NCBI GenBank assembly: GCA_934246625.1
Contig: CAKQHZ010000001.1
Span: forward strand, 210,001 to 242,000
Direction: 5' to 3'
Length of the DNA stretch: 32,000 nt
From: an uncultured Alphaproteobacteria bacterium
Lineage (GTDB): Bacteria > Pseudomonadota > Alphaproteobacteria > Rs-D84 > CACZYB01
Of the stretch, positions 4,654-17,056 are shown in pieces; within the stretch, counting starts at the first letter, position 1; the number at the start of each line of letters is the position of its first letter. The translations under genes were made by a program, and so were the position numbers. The notes under the pieces were generated by a model. The model was not told where the DNA came from and made no database searches. It worked only from the letters and a program-made list of their open reading frames with translations.

Positions 4654-5737
4654 AAAAATAAAAGTTGTGATTGGTGCTGGTGGAACTGGTGGACATTTGT
4701 TCCCTGCATCAGAAATTAAAAAAGAATTAGAAAGTCGTGGTTATGATGTCTATCTTATCACAGATAATAGAGGTAAAAGATTTGCATCAAAATTTGAAAA
4801 AATTTCTGTGATTATTGGTGGTGGATTAAGTGGTGAAAACCTTTGGTATAGAATAAGAAGTCTTACAAAACTTGCCATAGGTTTTATACAAACTTTCTTT
4901 TATATGATAACGATAAGACCCAAAGTTGTCATTGGTATGGGTGGATATATTTCTGTGCCAGTTGTTTTATGGGGAAAGATTTTAGGTAAAAAAACTATTA
5001 TCCATAATGCAGATTCAATTTTGGGAAATGCAAATATATTTCTTTCAAAATTTGCTGATGTGGTTGCTGTGTCATTTAAAAATACAAAAAAAATTCCACA
5101 AAATGCAAATGTAAAATTTGTGGGACTTCCTCTTCGTGAAGATATAAAGGAAATTGCAAATACGGACTATCCTGTAATAAATGACAAAGTTCCTTTTGTA
5201 ATTGCTGTAATGGGTGGTTCACAAGGAGCACAAATTTTTTCTGATACTGTTTCACGTGCGGTTGCAATGCTTGATGAAAAAATCAGACAAAGACTTTTTA
5301 TATATCAACAAGTGGTAAAAGAAGATATTGATGAAGTAAAATCATTTTACAAATCTTTTAATATAAAATGTGATGTAAGAAGTTTTTTTGAAAATCCTGC
5401 AAACATTCTTGAAAAATGTCATTTGTTTATTGGTCGTGCTGGGGCATCTACAGTTCTTGAAATTGGAACAATTGGAAGACCATCTATTTTTATTCCTGTA
5501 AAGCATAAGGATAGACAACAAGTCATAAATGCAGAACAAATTACAACCCAAGGTGGTGGTGAAATTATTTTACAAGATGATTTTACAGCTGAAAGTCTTT
5601 ATAATGTCCTTAAGAAATTGGTTATCAATGAAAAATTACTTGAAAATATGGCAAAAAAGTCTAAAATTTTTAAATTGCAAAATAATGCTAGTAAAAATAT
5701 CGTTGATGAAATCGATAAATTACTGCTTATAAAATAA
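4643..5737 (+). CDS. murG: UDP-GlcNAc:lipid I N-acetylglucosaminyltransferase
   Basis: The G-loop GAGGTGGHLFPA follows directly after MENKKIKVV. The ATG at 4643 is preceded by GAGGTGA, and the listed 4604 start would overlap ftsW by 50 nt. C-terminal GRAGASTV motif present. Confidence 0.9.
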   Translation: MENKKIKVVIGAGGTGGHLFPASEIKKELESRGYDVYLITDNRGKRFASKFEKISVIIGGGLSGENLWYRIRSLTKLAIGFIQTFFYMITIRPKVVIGMGGYISVPVVLWGKILGKKTIIHNADSILGNANIFLSKFADVVAVSFKNTKKIPQNANVKFVGLPLREDIKEIANTDYPVINDKVPFVIAVMGGSQGAQIFSDTVSRAVAMLDEKIRQRLFIYQQVVKEDIDEVKSFYKSFNIKCDVRSFFENPANILEKCHLFIGRAGASTVLEIGTIGRPSIFIPVKHKDRQQVINAEQITTQGGGEIILQDDFTAESLYNVLKKLVINEKLLENMAKKSKIFKLQNNASKNIVDEIDKLLLIK

Positions 5738-10489: not shown

Positions 10490-11265
10490 ATATTTAAGTT
10501 AAATATCTTTGTTGCATTTGATAAGGTAATATCACAAATTTCTTCGAAAGAAAGCCCCTTTAATTCAGCAAGTTTTTTTGCAACTTCACCGACAAAGCAA
10601 GGTTCATTTCGATGTCCTCTGTATGGGACAGGTGCAAGATATGGACTGTCAGTTTCAATCAAAAGTCGGTCCAATGGAACAATATTTTTGAAAACTTCCT
10701 GAAGTGATGTCGCATTTTTAAATGTCAAAATTCCAGATGCAGAAATATAACAACCTATATCCAACATTTTTTTTGCCATAGTTTCATCGGCGGTAAAACA
10801 ATGAATTATACACTTAAAACTATGTTTTTTCATTTCAGATGTTAAAATATTTGTCATATCTTCGTTTGAATCACGATTGTGTATTATCAATGGAAGTGAA
10901 GTTTGGGTTGCAACCTTTATGTGATTATAAAGATTTTCAAATTGTATATCTTTGTTAATATTCTCACGAGAATAATCAAGACCAGTTTCACCAATCGCAA
11001 CAATTTTATTTGATTTATTGATATACAACAATAGCTCGTCTTCAGAAATAGCAGACCCCATATCCTCAGCTTCGTGAGGGTGGACTCCAATTGCTCCAAA
11101 TATATTTTTGTGAGTATTCACTATATTTATGATTTTTTCAAAACTGTCTTTTGATGCACAGGCATTAAGCATATAGTTAACATTTGCATTTTCCGCCCTT
11201 AATATCACATCTTCAAGTTCATTATTTTCATAAAAATCAAGATGGCAATGTGTATCAATTAACAT
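10486..11265 (-). CDS. tatD: TatD-family metal-dependent DNase/hydrolase
   Basis: Starts MLIDTHCHLD and carries the conserved GVHPH, GETGLDY, IIHNRDS, IIHCF and ETDSPYLAP motifs. Confidence 0.88.
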   Translation of the reverse strand: MLIDTHCHLDFYENNELEDVILRAENANVNYMLNACASKDSFEKIINIVNTHKNIFGAIGVHPHEAEDMGSAISEDELLLYINKSNKIVAIGETGLDYSRENINKDIQFENLYNHIKVATQTSLPLIIHNRDSNEDMTNILTSEMKKHSFKCIIHCFTADETMAKKMLDIGCYISASGILTFKNATSLQEVFKNIVPLDRLLIETDSPYLAPVPYRGHRNEPCFVGEVAKKLAELKGLSFEEICDITLSNATKIFNLNI

Positions 11266-12514
11266 TTTTTATCCTTTCAAATGTAGATATAATTGTTGCG
11301 GTAATATCAAGATTGAGAAGTGGAACAAGGCGAAAATCCTTTAACACTGCCTCACGAATCGAAAACAAAGACTTTATATTTTTATAGTAAGTTGTAATTA
11401 CATCTAATGCCCTTGTTTCAATATCAGTTAAATTTTTAATTGGCAATTTTGATTTGTATTTTATTGCATTTGATAAAAAGCGAATCACTATATCCTGAAA
11501 AATATTAAAAATTTCTTCGGAATTACCGACGGTATTTATTATTTCCAAAATGCCACTATTTTTTTTATTAAAAATTTCTGGAATCACACCAAGGAATTTA
11601 GTTTGTAAATCCAACCCATTATTTTTATAAATATTTAATGCGGTTCCGATACTTCCTTCACTTATTTTTATAAGCTCTTTTATTTCATTTTCCTTTATAG
11701 ATGGTATTTTATCCTTTAATAAAAGCTCCATATTTTTATCATCAATAGGTGAAAGTTTTAAAATTCGGCATCGTGATTTTATTGTTGGAAGCAAACCGTT
11801 TATATTATGACAAATAAGAAGTAATAAAGATTGATTTGGAGCTTCCTCTAAAATCTTTAATAAAGCATTTTTACTGTTGGTATTCATTTCATCAACAGAA
11901 TCTATAATCGCAATTTTATATCCACCTTCTGATGAAGTTTTTGAAAAAAATTCCTTTAGCTTTCGAATCTGTTCAACAGAAATTTCAGTTTTAAGTTTTG
12001 TTTTTGAAGCATCAGAAAATTCACGTTCTATAATAATTAAATCGGTAAGTCCCCCTGCTTTTAATCTTTCAAATATAGGGTGTGATGCAGAAAGTTTAAG
12101 TGGGGATGTGTCAAATTTATCCAAAGATACACTTGCAACACTTTGTGATTGTATTGGGGTTTCAGTGTAGTTTAGTGATGAAAAAGAATCTTCGCTTTCA
12201 TCTTCGTCTTCATCATCATAATTGAAATTGTTTTCAGGAAGATTATCAAGTATTGGTGAAGATGTATCAATATTGATATTCAAATTTTTTAAATGATTTG
12301 GATTGTTAAGTGAAAAAATATATCGGGCAATTCTGTATGCAAGGGTTGCTTTACCAATACCCTTGGTTCCTGTAATCAACCAAGAATGGTGAAGATGTCC
12401 AGATTTAAACGCAGTGAAAAACTCCTCTTCTTCCTTTTGATGAGAAAGAAGGTATGGAGTATCCTTTGGATTATTTTCTTGATTTTCTAAAATAACATCT
12501 TCTTTTGTTGCCAT
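11255..12514 (-). CDS. holB: DNA polymerase III delta' subunit, with a long acidic/Ser-rich insertion
   Basis: HHSWLITGTKGIGKATLAYRIARYI AAA+ P-loop region, a clamp-loader-like DEMN box (IIDSVDEMN), and the SRC motif (IKSRCRIL). Lies between tmk and tatD, as in alphaproteobacteria. Confidence 0.8.
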   Translation of the reverse strand: MATKEDVILENQENNPKDTPYLLSHQKEEEEFFTAFKSGHLHHSWLITGTKGIGKATLAYRIARYIFSLNNPNHLKNLNINIDTSSPILDNLPENNFNYDDEDEDESEDSFSSLNYTETPIQSQSVASVSLDKFDTSPLKLSASHPIFERLKAGGLTDLIIIEREFSDASKTKLKTEISVEQIRKLKEFFSKTSSEGGYKIAIIDSVDEMNTNSKNALLKILEEAPNQSLLLLICHNINGLLPTIKSRCRILKLSPIDDKNMELLLKDKIPSIKENEIKELIKISEGSIGTALNIYKNNGLDLQTKFLGVIPEIFNKKNSGILEIINTVGNSEEIFNIFQDIVIRFLSNAIKYKSKLPIKNLTDIETRALDVITTYYKNIKSLFSIREAVLKDFRLVPLLNLDITATIISTFERIKNVN

Positions 12515-14444: not shown

Positions 14445-15638
14445 ATGACAGAAGAAGCTAAATATAAAGTATTGGCACGCAAATATAGACCTAGCACACT
14501 TGATGAACTTATAGGTCAAGATGTATTGGTTAAAACTTTGACTAATGCAATTAAGACTAATAGACTTGCTCATGCTTATATATTTACTGGTATTCGTGGC
14601 GTTGGTAAAACTTCAACCGCAAGAATTTTTGCAAAATCATTAAATTGCATTGGTGCCGATGGAAAGGCTACTGGTCCACAAGTAAAGCCTTGTGGTGTTT
14701 GTGAACATTGTCGTGCAATCGCAGAAGATAGACATATTGATGTTATTGAAATGGACGCGGCTTCACGAACTGGTGTTGATGATATTCGCGAAATTATTGA
14801 CGGCGTGCAATACAAACCTTCATCTGCAAGATACAAAGTTTATATCATCGATGAAGTTCACATGTTGTCAAAGAATGCCTTTAATGCACTTCTTAAAACA
14901 TTGGAAGAGCCTCCTCCTTATGCAAAATTTATTTTTGCAACAACTGAAATTCGAAAGGTTCCTGCGACTGTGTTATCTCGTTGTCAAAGATTTGATTTAC
15001 CACGTGTGGATTTAGAAACTCTTTCAAAGCATTTCAAGCATATTTGCGAATTGGAAAATGTTAAAATTGATGATGACTCTATTAACATTATTGCAAAAAC
15101 TGCAGATGGTTCTGTGCGTGATGGTATGAGTTTTTTAGATCAGGTCATTTCAAATTGCGAAGGGGATATTACATCAGAAAAGGTTTCAAAAATTTTGGGA
15201 TTGGCTGGTAAAGGTGTTGTATTCGATTTATACGATTCTATTATGAGTGGGAATATTGAAAAATCAGTTGAAATAATTGATAATCAATATAATTTAGGGG
15301 TTGACCCTGTGTTGATTTTAACTGATTTGTTGGAAATCACCCATTATATTACAAGGGTGAAAATTACACCAAAGGCTGTATCATTACTCCCTATTACACC
15401 AGCGGAACAAGAAAAGGTTTCAAAACTTGCAAATGATTTAAGCATTGCAACTCTTTCTCGTGTTTGGCAAATGCTTCTTAAGGGATTTGATGAACTTTCT
15501 CGTGTGCCAAATGTGCTTTCTGCGGTGGAAATGATTATTATTCGACTTTCTTATGTCGGTATGATGCCAAGTCCAGCGGAAATCCTTAACAAGATAGAAA
15601 ATCAAACTTCTTCTGAAGTTCAAAAAAAAAATATCTAG
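14445..15638 (+). CDS. dnaX: DNA polymerase III gamma/tau subunit, as encoded in the 0 frame (gamma-sized, 397 aa)
   Basis: YRPSTLDELIGQD, P-loop GIRGVGKTSTARI, a Zn module (CGVCEHC), IIDEVHMLS, and sensor SRCQRF. The frame ends Q-K-K-N-I-stop immediately after an A10 run. Confidence 0.9.
   Translation: MTEEAKYKVLARKYRPSTLDELIGQDVLVKTLTNAIKTNRLAHAYIFTGIRGVGKTSTARIFAKSLNCIGADGKATGPQVKPCGVCEHCRAIAEDRHIDVIEMDAASRTGVDDIREIIDGVQYKPSSARYKVYIIDEVHMLSKNAFNALLKTLEEPPPYAKFIFATTEIRKVPATVLSRCQRFDLPRVDLETLSKHFKHICELENVKIDDDSINIIAKTADGSVRDGMSFLDQVISNCEGDITSEKVSKILGLAGKGVVFDLYDSIMSGNIEKSVEIIDNQYNLGVDPVLILTDLLEITHYITRVKITPKAVSLLPITPAEQEKVSKLANDLSIATLSRVWQMLLKGFDELSRVPNVLSAVEMIIIRLSYVGMMPSPAEILNKIENQTSSEVQKKNI
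15622..15631 (+). other. A10 homopolymer at the dnaX frame junction (candidate slippage site)
   Basis: Ten consecutive A at 15622-15631. The 0 frame stops at 15636-15638. The +1 frame is open from 15598 to 16044. Confidence 0.5.
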
Positions 15639-16044
15639 CTTAATAAACGAATCTCCATTATTCGAAGAAAATAATGCGTTGACCGAAGTATCAACTCTTT
15701 CAATCGAAAGCATTGTCGAAATATTAAGAGAAAAGAAAAAATATCTTTTGTCCCAAGATGTTGAAAAGTATGTAAGATTTGTGTCATTTGAAAATGGAAC
15801 TCTTTTTATAAATTTTGATACAGGATATCCACGTGAACTTTTGAAAAACCTTAACGACTTTTTCATTATGGCAAAGTATAATATAAAGGTTGAACATTCA
15901 AATCAGGCTGGCGAAGATACTATTTATAAGAAAAAACAAGATATATTTAATTCTCAGCTTAAGGAAATTTCCACAAACCCAATTTTAAAAGAAGTTTTAC
16001 ATAGTTTTAAAAATTCTTATGTTGCAAAAATCGAAGAATTATAG
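15632..16044 (+). CDS. dnaX: DnaX tau-specific C-terminal segment in the +1 frame relative to dnaX
   Basis: The +1 frame reads ...KKKISSLINESPLFEENNALTEVSTLSIESIVEILREKKKYLLSQDVEKYVRFVSFENGTLFINFDTGYP... This matches the conserved C-terminal region of alphaproteobacterial DnaX (...V.LV.FE.G.L.I.L..GAP...). The listed TTG start at 15679 has no convincing RBS. Confidence 0.6.
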
Positions 16045-16411: not shown

Positions 16412-16420
16412 TATTTATAA

Positions 16421-16462
16421 AAAAATTAAATCCCCCTTGGCAAAACCTTGGGGGATTTTTTG
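16421..16462. terminator. Bidirectional intrinsic terminator between ybaB and the convergent small ORF
   Basis: AATCCCCC (16429-16436) pairs with GGGGGATT (16450-16457), and inner GG/CC pairs are possible. A T6 run follows on the + strand and a T-rich run on the - strand. Confidence 0.5.
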
Positions 16463-16472
16463 TTGGCTGATG

Positions 16473-16772
16473 TTATTTAATTTTATAAAGTTTTGCACAA
16501 TGAGAGCAAAGTTTATCATTAAATTTATCAGTATTGGATTTAACATTTGTTTTTCCATTTCCTGGGTGACGAAGATAAACCGTTTGATAGCTTGGATTAC
16601 CATATATATCTGTTTTATTTAGTTTATATTCTTGGAGTGGAGTTTCACAAATTTCAGAAAGTTCATTGAATTTTGCACGCAATTCATCACCTGTTCCGTA
16701 TGCATTACTTATTTCTTCACCTTCGGAGCAACCACCACCCTGAAAAATACATTTTGAATCAGTTTGATACAA
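16473..16772 (-). CDS. Hypothetical Cys-containing protein; probably the 3' part of a longer, frame-disrupted gene
   Basis: 99-aa ORF with a TTG start and no RBS. The same frame stays open upstream to 16844, and a further 47-codon ORF (16799-16942) lies in another frame. I recognised no family. Confidence 0.35.
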   Translation of the reverse strand: MYQTDSKCIFQGGGCSEGEEISNAYGTGDELRAKFNELSEICETPLQEYKLNKTDIYGNPSYQTVYLRHPGNGKTNVKSNTDKFNDKLCSHCAKLYKIK

Positions 16773-17000
16773 ATCTTTTACAGATGAACAGAAACCTCCT
16801 ACACCACCATAATAATTTTTTGTGCCAGCATGGGTAAAGATACGTCAAAGACTTTCCAACCACGCGAAGAGGATTTTATCACTGCACAAAGTTGAATTGG
16901 CAGTGCATTGTACATTAGGACTTTAGACAGTCCTATACCCATCTCTGGATCTGGTTTTATAATAAAATAATTTTGATTGTTTATAAAGCAAATTCTTTAC

Positions 17001-17029
17001 TTGCATTTGTTTTGTTTATTTTGTAATAT
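17001..17029 (+). promoter_or_regulatory. Sigma70-like promoter of tyrS (TTGCAT-N17-TAATAT, TG-extended)
   Basis: TTGCAT at 17001-17006 and TAATAT at 17024-17029; TG at 17022-17023. It lies 28 nt upstream of the tyrS ATG. Confidence 0.4.
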
Positions 17030-17056
17030 TTTTTCAATATAAATAAAGGTGAAAAA

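What the first reader, a model, noticed from the sequence alone, without database searches (positions are those of the whole stretch)
15598..16044. dnaX is split at an A10 run: the 0 frame gives a gamma-sized product and the tau C-terminal domain needs a +1/-2 shift or transcriptional slippage
**Seen in the sequence**
- The dnaX frame reads ...SSEVQKKNI-stop, with the stop (15636-15638) 5 nt after a run of ten A (15622-15631).
- The +1 frame is open from 15598 through the same A-run to 16044.
- That frame encodes a segment (…LSIESIVEILREKKKYLLSQDVEKYVRFVSFENGTLFINFDTGYP…) that I recognise as the conserved C-terminal region of alphaproteobacterial DnaX (tau).
- The annotated 121-aa ORF has a TTG start and no RBS, so it is unlikely to be an independent gene.

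**Established knowledge**
- E. coli makes gamma from dnaX by -1 ribosomal frameshifting at A AAA AAG.
- Thermus thermophilus uses transcriptional slippage on an A9 run.
- AT-rich endosymbionts rescue frameshifted genes by polymerase slippage on long poly(A) tracts.

**Inference**
- Here the polarity is reversed. The genome-encoded frame yields the short form, and mRNAs with one A fewer (A9) or two more (A12) would yield full-length tau of about 530 aa.
- The trivial alternative is a homopolymer length error in the sequence.
Basis: partly seen in the sequence, partly recalled or inferred. Interest (0 to 1): 0.65.

Follow-up and report, generated by a model that had tools for sequence, protein, structure and literature searches.

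The report
Split dnaX joined by poly-A slippage
In this gut alphaproteobacterium the replication clamp-loader gene dnaX is broken at a conserved run of ten A's, so the DNA frame gives only the short gamma form and the essential long tau form most likely needs RNA polymerase to miscount the A's; this layout was already described in other phyla.

Summary
dnaX (14445-15638) stops four bases after an A10 run (15622-15631). The +1 frame (15598-16044) encodes the DnaX C-terminal domain (Pfam DUF3646, E=3e-14).

It is not a sequencing error. The identical 397-aa product is indexed in 154 blocks of public assemblies, and six strains fetched, of which five differ from the window by SNPs, all carry A10. 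Thirty-eight protein clusters at 64-100% identity are truncated at the same place, and no in-frame allele above 60% identity appeared.

In 14 clade genomes the run is always A9-A11, even where GC3 is 0.75-0.88. The tau domain lies in the +1, -1 or 0 frame, and the off-frames stop almost at once. The C-terminal domain is under purifying selection (dN/dS 0.11-0.20 at dS>1). It has no conserved start codon or ribosome-binding site.

The best explanation is programmed transcriptional slippage, as in Thermus dnaX. A9 or A12 transcripts give a 532/533-aa tau. A10 and A11 transcripts give gamma.

The "reversed" layout was published by Antonov et al. 2013 for Chlorobi, Bacteroidetes and Verrucomicrobia, all in the -1 direction. 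This is a new alphaproteobacterial member with the +1 direction.

A hairpin directly 5' of the run (15605-15620) may stimulate slippage, but support for it is only suggestive.

The parts
14445..15638 (+). dnaX 0-frame ORF. It encodes a 397-aa gamma-like product (clamp-loader domains I-III) ending QKKNI-TAG.
   Evidence: Pfam DNA_pol3_delta2, DNAX_ATPase_lid and DNA_pol3_gamma3; the identical protein is indexed in 154 blocks of public assemblies.
15605..15620 (+). Hairpin AACTTC-TTCT-GAAGTT (6 bp, 4-nt loop) that ends 1 nt before the A run. It is a candidate nascent-RNA stimulator of slippage.
   Evidence: MFE -5.2 kcal/mol, 3.3% of shuffles as stable; a hairpin of at least 5 bp ends 0-4 nt before the run in 10 of 14 clade genomes, against a 7-13% background; covariation and synonymous-site support are modest.
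15622..15631 (+). A10 slippery run at the domain III / C-terminal region boundary. This is the site of the frame change.
   Evidence: It is conserved as A9-A11 in all 14 clade genomes examined, including GC-rich ones, and is absent from 78 other alphaproteobacterial dnaX loci.
15636..15638 (+). 0-frame stop (TAG). It terminates gamma made from faithful A10 transcripts.
   Evidence: A 0-frame stop lies 0-3 codons after the run in 11 of the 12 split relatives; L094 stops after 6 codons.
15641..15643 (+). -1-frame stop (TAA). It would terminate a 399-aa gamma' (…QKKKYLA) made from A11 transcripts.
   Evidence: Both non-tau frames close within a few codons, as reported for Thermus dnaX (PMC5009743).
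15632..16044 (+). Tau-specific coding sequence in the +1 frame (the frame is open from 15598). It comprises a poorly conserved linker, then the C-terminal domain, then TAG at 16042-16044. Joined at A9 it gives a 532-aa tau.
   Evidence: C-domain dN/dS is 0.11-0.20 at dS>1 against relatives that carry the same frame break.
15700..16029 (+). DUF3646 / DnaX C-terminal domain within the +1 frame.
   Evidence: residues 35-144 of the 148-aa translation from 15598 match positions 3-113 of 114 in PF12362 (E=3e-14).

Best explanation
This is programmed transcriptional slippage (realignment) on a conserved A10 tract in dnaX.

Proposed mechanism (inferred):
- While copying the T10 template, RNA polymerase lets the all-rA:dT hybrid slip. 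The result is a mixed mRNA population carrying A9, A10, A11, A12 and so on.
- Standard translation of faithful A10 mRNA gives a 397-aa gamma (domains I-III).
- A11 mRNA gives a 399-aa gamma'.
- A9 or A12 mRNA joins the +1 frame and gives a 532- or 533-aa tau. Tau carries the linker and the C-terminal DUF3646 domain. By analogy with the tau-specific region of other DnaX proteins, I take this domain to tether the polymerase to the clamp loader; that role was not tested here.
- A small hairpin that ends 1 nt before the run may form in the RNA exit channel. It could shorten the hybrid and favour forward realignment (loss of one A), as shown for a Roseiflexus IS element.

Shown here:
- the anatomy of the site;
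- its reproducibility across assemblies and strains;
- its deep conservation with a changing frame;
- purifying selection on the out-of-frame C-terminal domain;
- the absence of an independent start codon.

Inferred, not shown:
- that the frame change happens at transcription rather than at translation;
- its efficiency;
- the role of the hairpin.
For: 1. The break is real and fixed.
- The identical 397-aa product is indexed in 154 blocks of the collection, from several studies and assemblers.
- Six strain loci were fetched. Five differ from the window by 19-38 SNPs in 4.7 kb and one is identical; all carry A10.
- Thirty-eight protein clusters at 64-100% identity are gamma-sized and end ...QKKN(x)* or ...QKKK*.
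- No in-frame allele above 60% identity appeared among the hits, although one would have out-scored them all.

2. The run is conserved but the frame is not.
- All 14 clade genomes carry A9-A11 at the same codon.
- The tau domain lies in the +1 frame in eight (window, L007, L008, L177, L089, L090, L092, L094), the -1 frame in four (L087, L088, L091, L093) and the 0 frame in two (L095, L096).
- Orthologues with opposite shift directions at one poly-A site is the criterion Antonov et al. used to call transcriptional realignment (PMC3711429).

3. The run is never shorter than 9, the length at which efficient RNAP slippage is reported (PMC5009743). It persists in relatives with GC3 of 0.75-0.88, where three consecutive AAA Lys codons have P = 0.01-0.08.

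4. It is absent from 78 other alphaproteobacterial dnaX genes, all of which are contiguous.

5. Both non-tau frames stop within a few codons of the run, as in Thermus dnaX.

6. The C-terminal domain has dN/dS of 0.11-0.20 at dS>1.

7. No conserved start or SD exists for the C-terminal ORF, and four relatives have no start codon at all before the conserved domain.

8. There are no E. coli-type ribosomal frameshift signals. No Rfam hit was found, no conserved 3' structure, and I saw no SD-like sequence in the 30 nt before the run.

9. A 5'-adjacent hairpin is present in 10 of 14 genomes against a 7-13% background, and its arm sequences differ between lineages.
Against: - No RNA or protein data exist for this organism, so the level at which the frame changes is inferred.
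- Thermus slippage is reported to add A's in diminishing proportion (PMC5009743). If only additions occur, tau here would need +2 and could be a minority product.
- The -1-frame and A11 cases rest on only one or two assemblies each, some at low coverage. L087 has 5x coverage. L091 and L093 would read in frame with one more A. The 'frame toggling' is therefore less secure than the +1 state.
- Hairpin support is weak once the peptide is held fixed. Synonymous-recoding p values are 0.004-0.6, and 0.05 for the window. In the fixed register 70% of cells pair against 63% in shuffles (7 of 500 shuffles as high).
- Two clade members (L091, L093) have no hairpin of any length, and two more (L177, L088) have only a mismatched or 4-bp one.
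Confidence: 0.7

Rival explanations
1. The frame change is ribosomal. Either a +1 (or -2) programmed frameshift occurs, or the ribosome slides on the lysine-coding A10 tract. The mRNA is a faithful A10 copy, and tRNA-Lys re-pairs one base forward on AAA_AAA_A to enter the tau frame.
For: Any AAA codon in the run allows perfect re-pairing in every frame. The orthologous E. coli gene uses ribosomal frameshifting at A_AAA_AAG (PMC3711429 and PMC5009743). From my own knowledge, ribosome sliding on poly(A) has been reported, and refolding 5' hairpins have been reported to bias frameshifting forward. The hairpin at 15605-15620 could act that way. This mechanism may also contribute alongside transcriptional slippage.
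Against: None of the usual stimulators is present. There is no SD-like element, no conserved 3' stem-loop, no hungry or stop codon in the A site for a +1 shift in the window (the next 0-frame codon is AAU), and no match to the Rfam dnaX element. A heptamer would suffice for ribosomal shifting, yet the run is at least 9 in all 14 genomes, including GC-rich ones. Relatives need shifts in opposite directions, which one tuned ribosomal signal does not explain. An essential product would need a high +1 efficiency.
Confidence: 0.2
2. The split is a sequencing or assembly artefact. The true genome has A9 or A12 and one uninterrupted dnaX.
For: Homopolymers are error-prone. The finding rests on assembled metagenomic contigs.
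Against: The identical A10-dependent protein is indexed in 154 blocks of assemblies from different studies and assemblers. Six fetched strain loci, five of which differ from the window by SNPs, all carry A10. Other species at 79-90% identity show the same A10 and frame. No in-frame allele above 60% identity was found among 5.8 billion clusters.
Confidence: 0.01
3. The organism makes only gamma-sized DnaX, and the downstream frame is a decaying remnant. Alternatively, the C-terminal domain is made as a separate small protein from its own start (TTG 15679 or 15748) or by reinitiation after the TAG.
For: Gene callers annotate a 98- or 121-aa ORF carrying DUF3646. A TTG lies at 15679, before the conserved domain.
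Against: The C-terminal domain has dN/dS of 0.11-0.20 while synonymous sites are saturated, so it is not decaying. The tau frame stays open from the run through a fast-evolving linker in every genome. No start position or SD is conserved. L089, L090, L091 and L094 have no ATG, GTG or TTG before the conserved domain. Gene callers pick inconsistent starts. From established knowledge of E. coli Pol III, tau works by physically linking the clamp-loader module to the polymerase and helicase, so an untethered C-terminal domain would not do that job.
Confidence: 0.04
4. The switch is DNA-level phase variation. Replication slippage changes the tract between A10 and A9/A11 within the population, and only some cells make tau.
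For: Run length does differ between related genomes (A9, A10, A11), so the tract does mutate over evolutionary time.
Against: From established E. coli genetics, tau is needed in every cell, so an OFF state would be lethal rather than a phase. All fetched strains of this species have A10, and no in-frame allele was recovered. Read-level heterogeneity could not be examined here.
Confidence: 0.03

Closest known systems
Two-ORF dnaX with a poly-A tract in which recoding is required for tau (Antonov et al. 2013, NAR 41:6514, PMC3711429; 17 genes from 12 genera; the named examples include Chlorobium, Flavobacterium, Cytophaga, Capnocytophaga and Coraliomargarita)
   Same: Gamma is the 0-frame product, with a stop just after an A10 run at the end of domain III. 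The tau-specific part lies in another frame. Transcriptional realignment is inferred from similarity to Thermus. RefSeq does not annotate these genes as recoded.
   Different: Every published case has a -1 frameshift at the DNA level. The window needs the opposite change: loss of one A or gain of two, with tau in the +1 frame. The host is an alphaproteobacterial clade not in that set. Within this clade all three frame states occur around one conserved run. A 5'-adjacent hairpin is present.
Thermus thermophilus dnaX transcriptional slippage on A9 (Larsen et al. 2000 PNAS, as summarised in PMC1088944 and PMC5009743)
   Same: The same gene and the same position. The run is a homopolymeric A tract of at least 9, with stops close by in both alternative frames. 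Two products share an N-terminus. The in-frame clade relatives L095 and L096 have exactly this layout.
   Different: In Thermus tau is the templated product and slippage makes gamma. In the window gamma is templated and slippage is needed for the essential tau.
Nascent-RNA stem-loop-stimulated transcriptional slippage in Roseiflexus IS630 (Penno et al. 2015 PNAS, summarised in PMC5009743)
   Same: A hairpin lies immediately 5' of the slippage motif. The productive event is loss of one nucleotide, which is also the simplest route to tau here (A10 to A9).
   Different: The Roseiflexus stem is GC-rich (GCGGGC/GCCCGC) and the motif, T5C5, does not slip without it. Here the stem is AU-rich (-5.2 kcal/mol) and A10 should slip unaided. 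The function of the hairpin is not established. This is an essential cellular gene, not a transposase.
E. coli dnaX -1 programmed ribosomal frameshifting (A_AAA_AAG with an upstream SD and a 3' stem-loop)
   Same: The same gene, the same domain boundary and the same biological outcome: gamma and tau from one locus.
   Different: The direction, the polarity and all three signals differ. No Rfam match was found, and there is no SD and no conserved 3' stem-loop.
Poly(A) frameshifts rescued by polymerase infidelity in Buchnera/Blochmannia, including Blochmannia dnaX (PMC3017870)
   Same: An out-of-frame essential gene at a poly(A) tract is presumed to be corrected in a fraction of transcripts.
   Different: In the endosymbionts these are sporadic, lineage-specific lesions in decaying AT-rich genomes, and the Blochmannia dnaX lesion lies inside the tau-only region. 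Here the site sits exactly at the gamma/tau boundary. It is conserved across relatives whose dnaX GC content ranges from 27% to 66%. It is also the only A/T run of 9 or more in 32 kb.

Membership tests
dnaX programmed transcriptional slippage (Thermus type / Antonov two-ORF type) | A homopolymeric A run of about 9 or more in the sense strand at the gamma/tau boundary of dnaX | tested here: met
   A10 at 15622-15631, directly after the Pfam DNA_pol3_gamma3 domain.
dnaX programmed transcriptional slippage (Thermus type / Antonov two-ORF type) | The run is conserved among orthologues beyond what coding or base composition explains | tested here: met
   A9-A11 in 14 of 14 clade genomes, at dS>1 and in genomes with GC3 of 0.75-0.88. 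Absent from 78 other alphaproteobacterial dnaX genes.
dnaX programmed transcriptional slippage (Thermus type / Antonov two-ORF type) | Stop codons lie close to the run in the frames that do not encode tau | tested here: met
   In the window the 0-frame stop comes 2 codons after the run and the -1-frame stop 4 codons after it. In relatives the distance is 0-9 codons.
dnaX programmed transcriptional slippage (Thermus type / Antonov two-ORF type) | Orthologues need frame changes in different directions at the same run (Antonov's criterion for realignment over ribosomal frameshifting) | tested here: met
   +1, -1 and 0 states were all seen. The -1 states rest on only one or two assemblies each.
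dnaX programmed transcriptional slippage (Thermus type / Antonov two-ORF type) | A heterogeneous mRNA population at the run, and two DnaX proteins in the cell | not testable with these tools
   No read-level RNA or protein data are available for this uncultured organism.
Antonov 2013 two-ORF dnaX cluster specifically | A -1 frameshift at the DNA level between the two ORFs | tested here: not met
   The window's tau frame is +1. It has the same architecture but the opposite direction, so it would not fall in that GeneTack cluster as defined.
E. coli-type dnaX -1 ribosomal frameshift element (Rfam DnaX frameshifting element) | An A_AAA_AAG heptamer, an upstream SD-like stimulator and a 3' stem-loop | tested here: not met
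   No G ends the run and the required direction is +1. I saw no SD-like motif upstream. The 3' 60 nt are unstructured (z=-0.06 in the window, and not conserved). No Rfam match was found even at E<=10.
Stem-loop-stimulated transcriptional slippage (Penno 2015) | A nascent-RNA hairpin immediately 5' of the slippage motif | tested here: met
   6-bp stem, 4-nt loop, 1-nt spacer, -5.2 kcal/mol.
Stem-loop-stimulated transcriptional slippage (Penno 2015) | The hairpin is maintained by selection (covariation) and is required for slippage | tested here: inconclusive
   10 of 14 genomes have a hairpin of at least 5 bp at the run, against a 7-13% background. Lineages use different arm sequences. But the fixed-register pairing is 70% against 63% (7/500), with 4 pairs changed on both sides. 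Synonymous-recoding p values are 0.004-0.6. The coded peptide (T/S-S-x-E-V/E) largely dictates the pairing. Whether the hairpin is required cannot be tested here.
Endosymbiont poly(A) frameshift rescue (Buchnera/Blochmannia) | Sporadic, non-conserved lesions among many long poly(A/T) tracts in a decaying AT-rich genome | tested here: not met
   There is one A/T run of 9 or more in 32 kb and the neighbouring genes are intact. The site is conserved in GC-rich relatives.
DnaX (gamma/tau) protein family | The full-length product matches the alphaproteobacterial DnaX equivalog, including the C-terminal domain | tested here: met
   The fused 532-aa protein scores 696 bits against NF006585 (cutoff 604), in two stretches. 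It is 60% identical over 99% of its length to the contiguous 526-aa relative P0026.

The most novel reading that the evidence does not exclude
A whole clade of mostly host-associated Alphaproteobacteria makes gamma its templated DnaX product. It depends on RNA polymerase slippage for the essential tau, with a terminator-like module (a nascent hairpin followed by a homopolymeric tract) tuned to favour loss of one A. This would be the first cellular, non-transposon gene to use hairpin-stimulated transcriptional slippage. The clade's drift among the +1, -1 and 0 frame states would show that slippage yields all three frames at physiologically sufficient levels, so that the genomic frame is nearly neutral.
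Probability: 0.3. Interest if true: 0.6.

Novelty: new member of a known kind. Interest (0 to 1): 0.42.

Why it matters
- **Annotation.** Pipelines currently call a truncated 'gamma/tau' protein plus a spurious 98-140-aa ORF in every genome of this clade. The correct product is a recoded 532-aa tau.
- **Range of the known layout.** The finding extends the reversed (tau-by-recoding) dnaX layout to Alphaproteobacteria. The only mechanism for making gamma that I found reported in this class is ClpXP proteolysis in Caulobacter.
- **A comparative series.** The clade offers one conserved run with three frame states across genomes whose dnaX GC content ranges from 27% to 66%. This could be used to test how RNAP slippage spectra and 5' hairpins set the tau:gamma ratio.
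- **Limits.** It does not change the understanding of dnaX recoding in principle.

Tried and rejected
- **Rfam scans.** I scanned the site at E<=10 and the whole window at gathering thresholds. Only chance hits appeared (snoR10, MIR319) and there was no dnaX element.
- **3' stimulator.** Folding the 60 nt after the run in 13 genomes showed no conserved structure. Only L092 has a strong hairpin there.
- **Metagenome scan.** The scan with a clade alignment picked generic motifs (LKTLEEPP, LSRCQRFD). It returned mostly distant relatives (58% identity or less), so it added no clade DNA. It did show poly-A tracts at the dnaX junction in other lineages.
- **Hairpin tests.** The synonymous-recoding test and the fixed-register covariation test came out weak. 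I therefore do not claim the hairpin as established.
- **PDB search.** A sequence search of the PDB with the C-terminal region found no homologue, only a chance RACK1 hit at E=2.1. The domain assignment therefore rests on Pfam and NCBIfam.
- **Readings rejected.** Sequencing error, pseudogene, separate C-terminal gene, DNA phase variation and endosymbiont-type decay were each rejected for the reasons given under the rival explanations.
- **Literature.** Searches of the held library for an alphaproteobacterial case found none.
Full report
**1. The observation**

- An ATG-started ORF at 14445-15638 encodes a 397-aa protein with the three DnaX clamp-loader domains: Pfam DNA_pol3_delta2 (2e-42), DNAX_ATPase_lid and DNA_pol3_gamma3 (9e-42).
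- It ends ...SSEVQKKNI-TAG. The TAG is at 15636-15638, four bases after a run of exactly ten A (15622-15631).
- The +1 frame is open from 15598 to the TAG at 16042-16044.
- Its product matches Pfam PF12362/DUF3646, 'DNA polymerase III gamma and tau subunits C terminal' (E=3e-14, above the gathering score).
- Deleting one A gives a single 532-aa ORF.
- That ORF passes the NCBIfam alphaproteobacterial DnaX equivalog NF006585 (696 bits, cutoff 604). It aligns over 99% of its length with a contiguous 526-aa relative.
- The -1 frame, which A11 transcripts would read, stops after four codons at 15641-15643.
- The A10 run is the only homopolymer longer than 8 in the 32-kb window.

**2. Not an artefact and not decay**

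- The exact 397-aa protein can only arise from A10. It is indexed in 154 blocks of public assemblies, mostly human gut metagenomes from several studies and assemblers.
- Six such loci were fetched. One is identical to the window over 4.7 kb and five differ by 19-38 SNPs. All six have A10.
- A protein search with the fused tau returned 38 clusters at 64-100% identity that are all 387-400 aa and end ...QKKN(x)* or ...QKKK*. The first full-length relatives appear only at 60%, 54% and 53% identity. An in-frame allele of the window's lineage would have topped that list, and none exists.
- Against relatives that share the break, the C-terminal domain has dN/dS of 0.11-0.20 while dS exceeds 1. It is therefore translated and constrained.
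- The neighbouring genes are intact and densely packed. They include tmk, a PBP5-type carboxypeptidase, ybaB, tyrS and lpxK.

**3. Comparative anatomy**

I fetched DNA for 13 further clade members: L007, L008, L087-L096 and L177. Every one has an A9-A11 run at the same codon.

| Tau frame | Members | Change needed for tau |
|---|---|---|
| +1 | window, L007, L008, L177, L089, L090, L092, L094 (all A10) | lose one A or gain two |
| -1 | L087 and L088 (A11), L091 (A10), L093 (A9) | gain one A or lose two |
| 0 | L095 (A11), L096 (A10) | none |

- The 0-frame members have stops at once in both other frames, which is the Thermus layout.
- In the 12 split genes the 0-frame stop comes 0-3 codons after the run, except in L094 where it comes after six.
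- dnaX GC content in the clade ranges from 27% to 66%. The perfect A run survives in members with GC3 of 0.75-0.88, where three successive AAA Lys codons have a probability of 0.01-0.08.
- By contrast, 78 dnaX loci from other Alphaproteobacteria (40-47% identity) are contiguous ORFs of 517-610 codons with no A run of 7 or more at the junction.
- Caveat: the A11 and -1 states each rest on one or two assemblies. L087 has only 5x coverage. L091 and L093 would be in frame with one more A. The +1 state of the window's lineage is the well-supported one.

**4. No independent C-terminal gene**

- In the tau frame, the stretch between the run and the conserved domain is a fast-evolving linker that nevertheless stays open in all genomes.
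- Candidate starts (ATG, GTG, TTG) are not conserved in position, and most lack any SD-like motif.
- L089, L090, L091 and L094 have no start codon at all before the conserved domain.
- Gene callers pick different starts in different strains of the same species, giving 98 or 121 aa.

**5. Mechanism**

The evidence fits programmed transcriptional realignment best.
- The run is never shorter than 9, the length at which efficient RNAP slippage is reported (PMC5009743). A heptamer would be enough for ribosomal shifting.
- Relatives need shifts in opposite directions, which is Antonov et al.'s criterion for realignment.
- Both off-frames are closed immediately, as in Thermus.
- None of the E. coli dnaX ribosomal signals is present. 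There is no Rfam match, no conserved 3' structure, and I saw no SD-like sequence upstream.

Under this model:
- A10 transcripts give a 397-aa gamma.
- A11 transcripts give a 399-aa gamma'.
- A9 or A12 transcripts give a 532- or 533-aa tau.

Ribosomal +1 shifting or sliding on the A tract cannot be excluded from sequence alone, and it may contribute. I give it about 0.2.

**6. The hairpin**

Directly 5' of the run lies AACUUC-UUCU-GAAGUU (15605-15620). It has a 1-nt spacer and an MFE of -5.2 kcal/mol, and 3% of shuffles are as stable.

For a real structure:
- Hairpins of at least 5 bp ending 0-4 nt before the run occur in 10 of 14 clade genomes, against 7-13% of background positions.
- Different lineages use different arms: UUCCUC/GAGGAA, CCUCGUC/GACGAGG, UUCAUC/GGUGAA and an 8-bp AACUUCUG/CAGAAGUU.
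- The geometry matches the nascent-RNA hairpin that drives loss of one nucleotide in Roseiflexus IS630 (Penno et al. 2015, via PMC5009743). Loss of one A is also the simplest route to tau here.

Against it:
- The pairing is largely dictated by the encoded peptide (T/S-S-x-E-V/E).
- Holding the peptide fixed, synonymous recoding gives p = 0.05 for the window and 0.004-0.6 across genomes.
- A fixed-register count gives 70% paired cells against 63% in shuffles (7 of 500 shuffles as high), with four pairs changed on both sides.
- L177 carries an uncompensated A·C mismatch. L088 has only a 4-bp stem. L091 and L093 have no hairpin.

I treat the hairpin as a suggestive lead, not a finding.

**7. Relation to what is known**

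- The two-ORF dnaX in which recoding is required for tau was reported by Antonov et al. 2013. They found 17 genes from 12 genera, and nine carry A10 aligned to the Thermus A9 site. The named examples are Chlorobium, Flavobacterium, Cytophaga, Capnocytophaga, Coraliomargarita and Prosthecochloris. All are -1 at the DNA level. The 2016 review by Atkins et al. discusses this reversal.
- Thermus dnaX (Larsen et al. 2000) is the experimentally shown case of slippage in this gene.
- Blochmannia dnaX carries an unrelated poly(A) lesion inside the tau-only region.
- The only gamma-making mechanism I found reported for Alphaproteobacteria is ClpXP proteolysis in Caulobacter.
- Searches of the held library found no description of an alphaproteobacterial poly-A dnaX.

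The window is therefore a new member of a known kind. Three features differ from the published cases: the +1 direction, clade-wide variation of the frame around a fixed run, and a possible 5' hairpin.

**8. Verdict**

- Confidence in transcriptional slippage as the main route to tau is about 0.7.
- Interest is moderate. This is a clean, conserved and mis-annotated recoding site in an essential gene of common human-gut bacteria, but the principle has been in the literature since 2000 and 2013.

Noticed in passing
L103:2358-2368; L145:2412-2422; L150:2492-2501; L173:2336-2345; L176:2102-2110; L140:1330-1339: More distant dnaX genes from other metagenomes (40-54% identity) also carry A9-A11 tracts at or after the gamma/tau boundary. 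L103 (human gut, A11) is split, with tau in the +1 frame. The others have tau in frame, with stops within 0-9 codons in both other frames (the Thermus layout). Poly-A at this junction seems to recur widely.
   Followed up: partly
window 16412-17056: The ybaB-tyrS spacer is unusually long (about 645 nt) for this compact genome, and its length varies between strains. tyrS starts at locus position 5213, 5462 or 5613 in L006, L001 and L003. A 99-aa minus-strand ORF (16473-16772) with no Pfam hit is called in only some strains. recR, which commonly follows dnaX-ybaB in other bacteria, is absent from this position.
   Followed up: no
window 11255-12514 (-): A 419-aa ORF with a DNA_pol3_delta2 (delta-prime/holB-like) domain lies two genes upstream of dnaX, next to tmk. 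From memory, that is about 90 aa longer than typical HolB proteins. The extra part was not examined.
   Followed up: no
L007 (CAZHAL010000035.1): The GTDB representative contig that carries an 88%-identical split dnaX is labelled 'uncultured Bacteroidales bacterium' in its record. Its dnaX and neighbouring genes are clearly from the same alphaproteobacterial clade, so the label is probably a binning or naming error.
   Followed up: no
L008:2943-2952; L177:1452-1462: T10 and T11 runs lie about 50 nt upstream of the dnaX start codon in two relatives, in the spacer between the divergently transcribed PBP5 gene and dnaX. Runs at this position could affect promoter spacing or reiterative initiation. 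The window has no equivalent run there.
   Followed up: no
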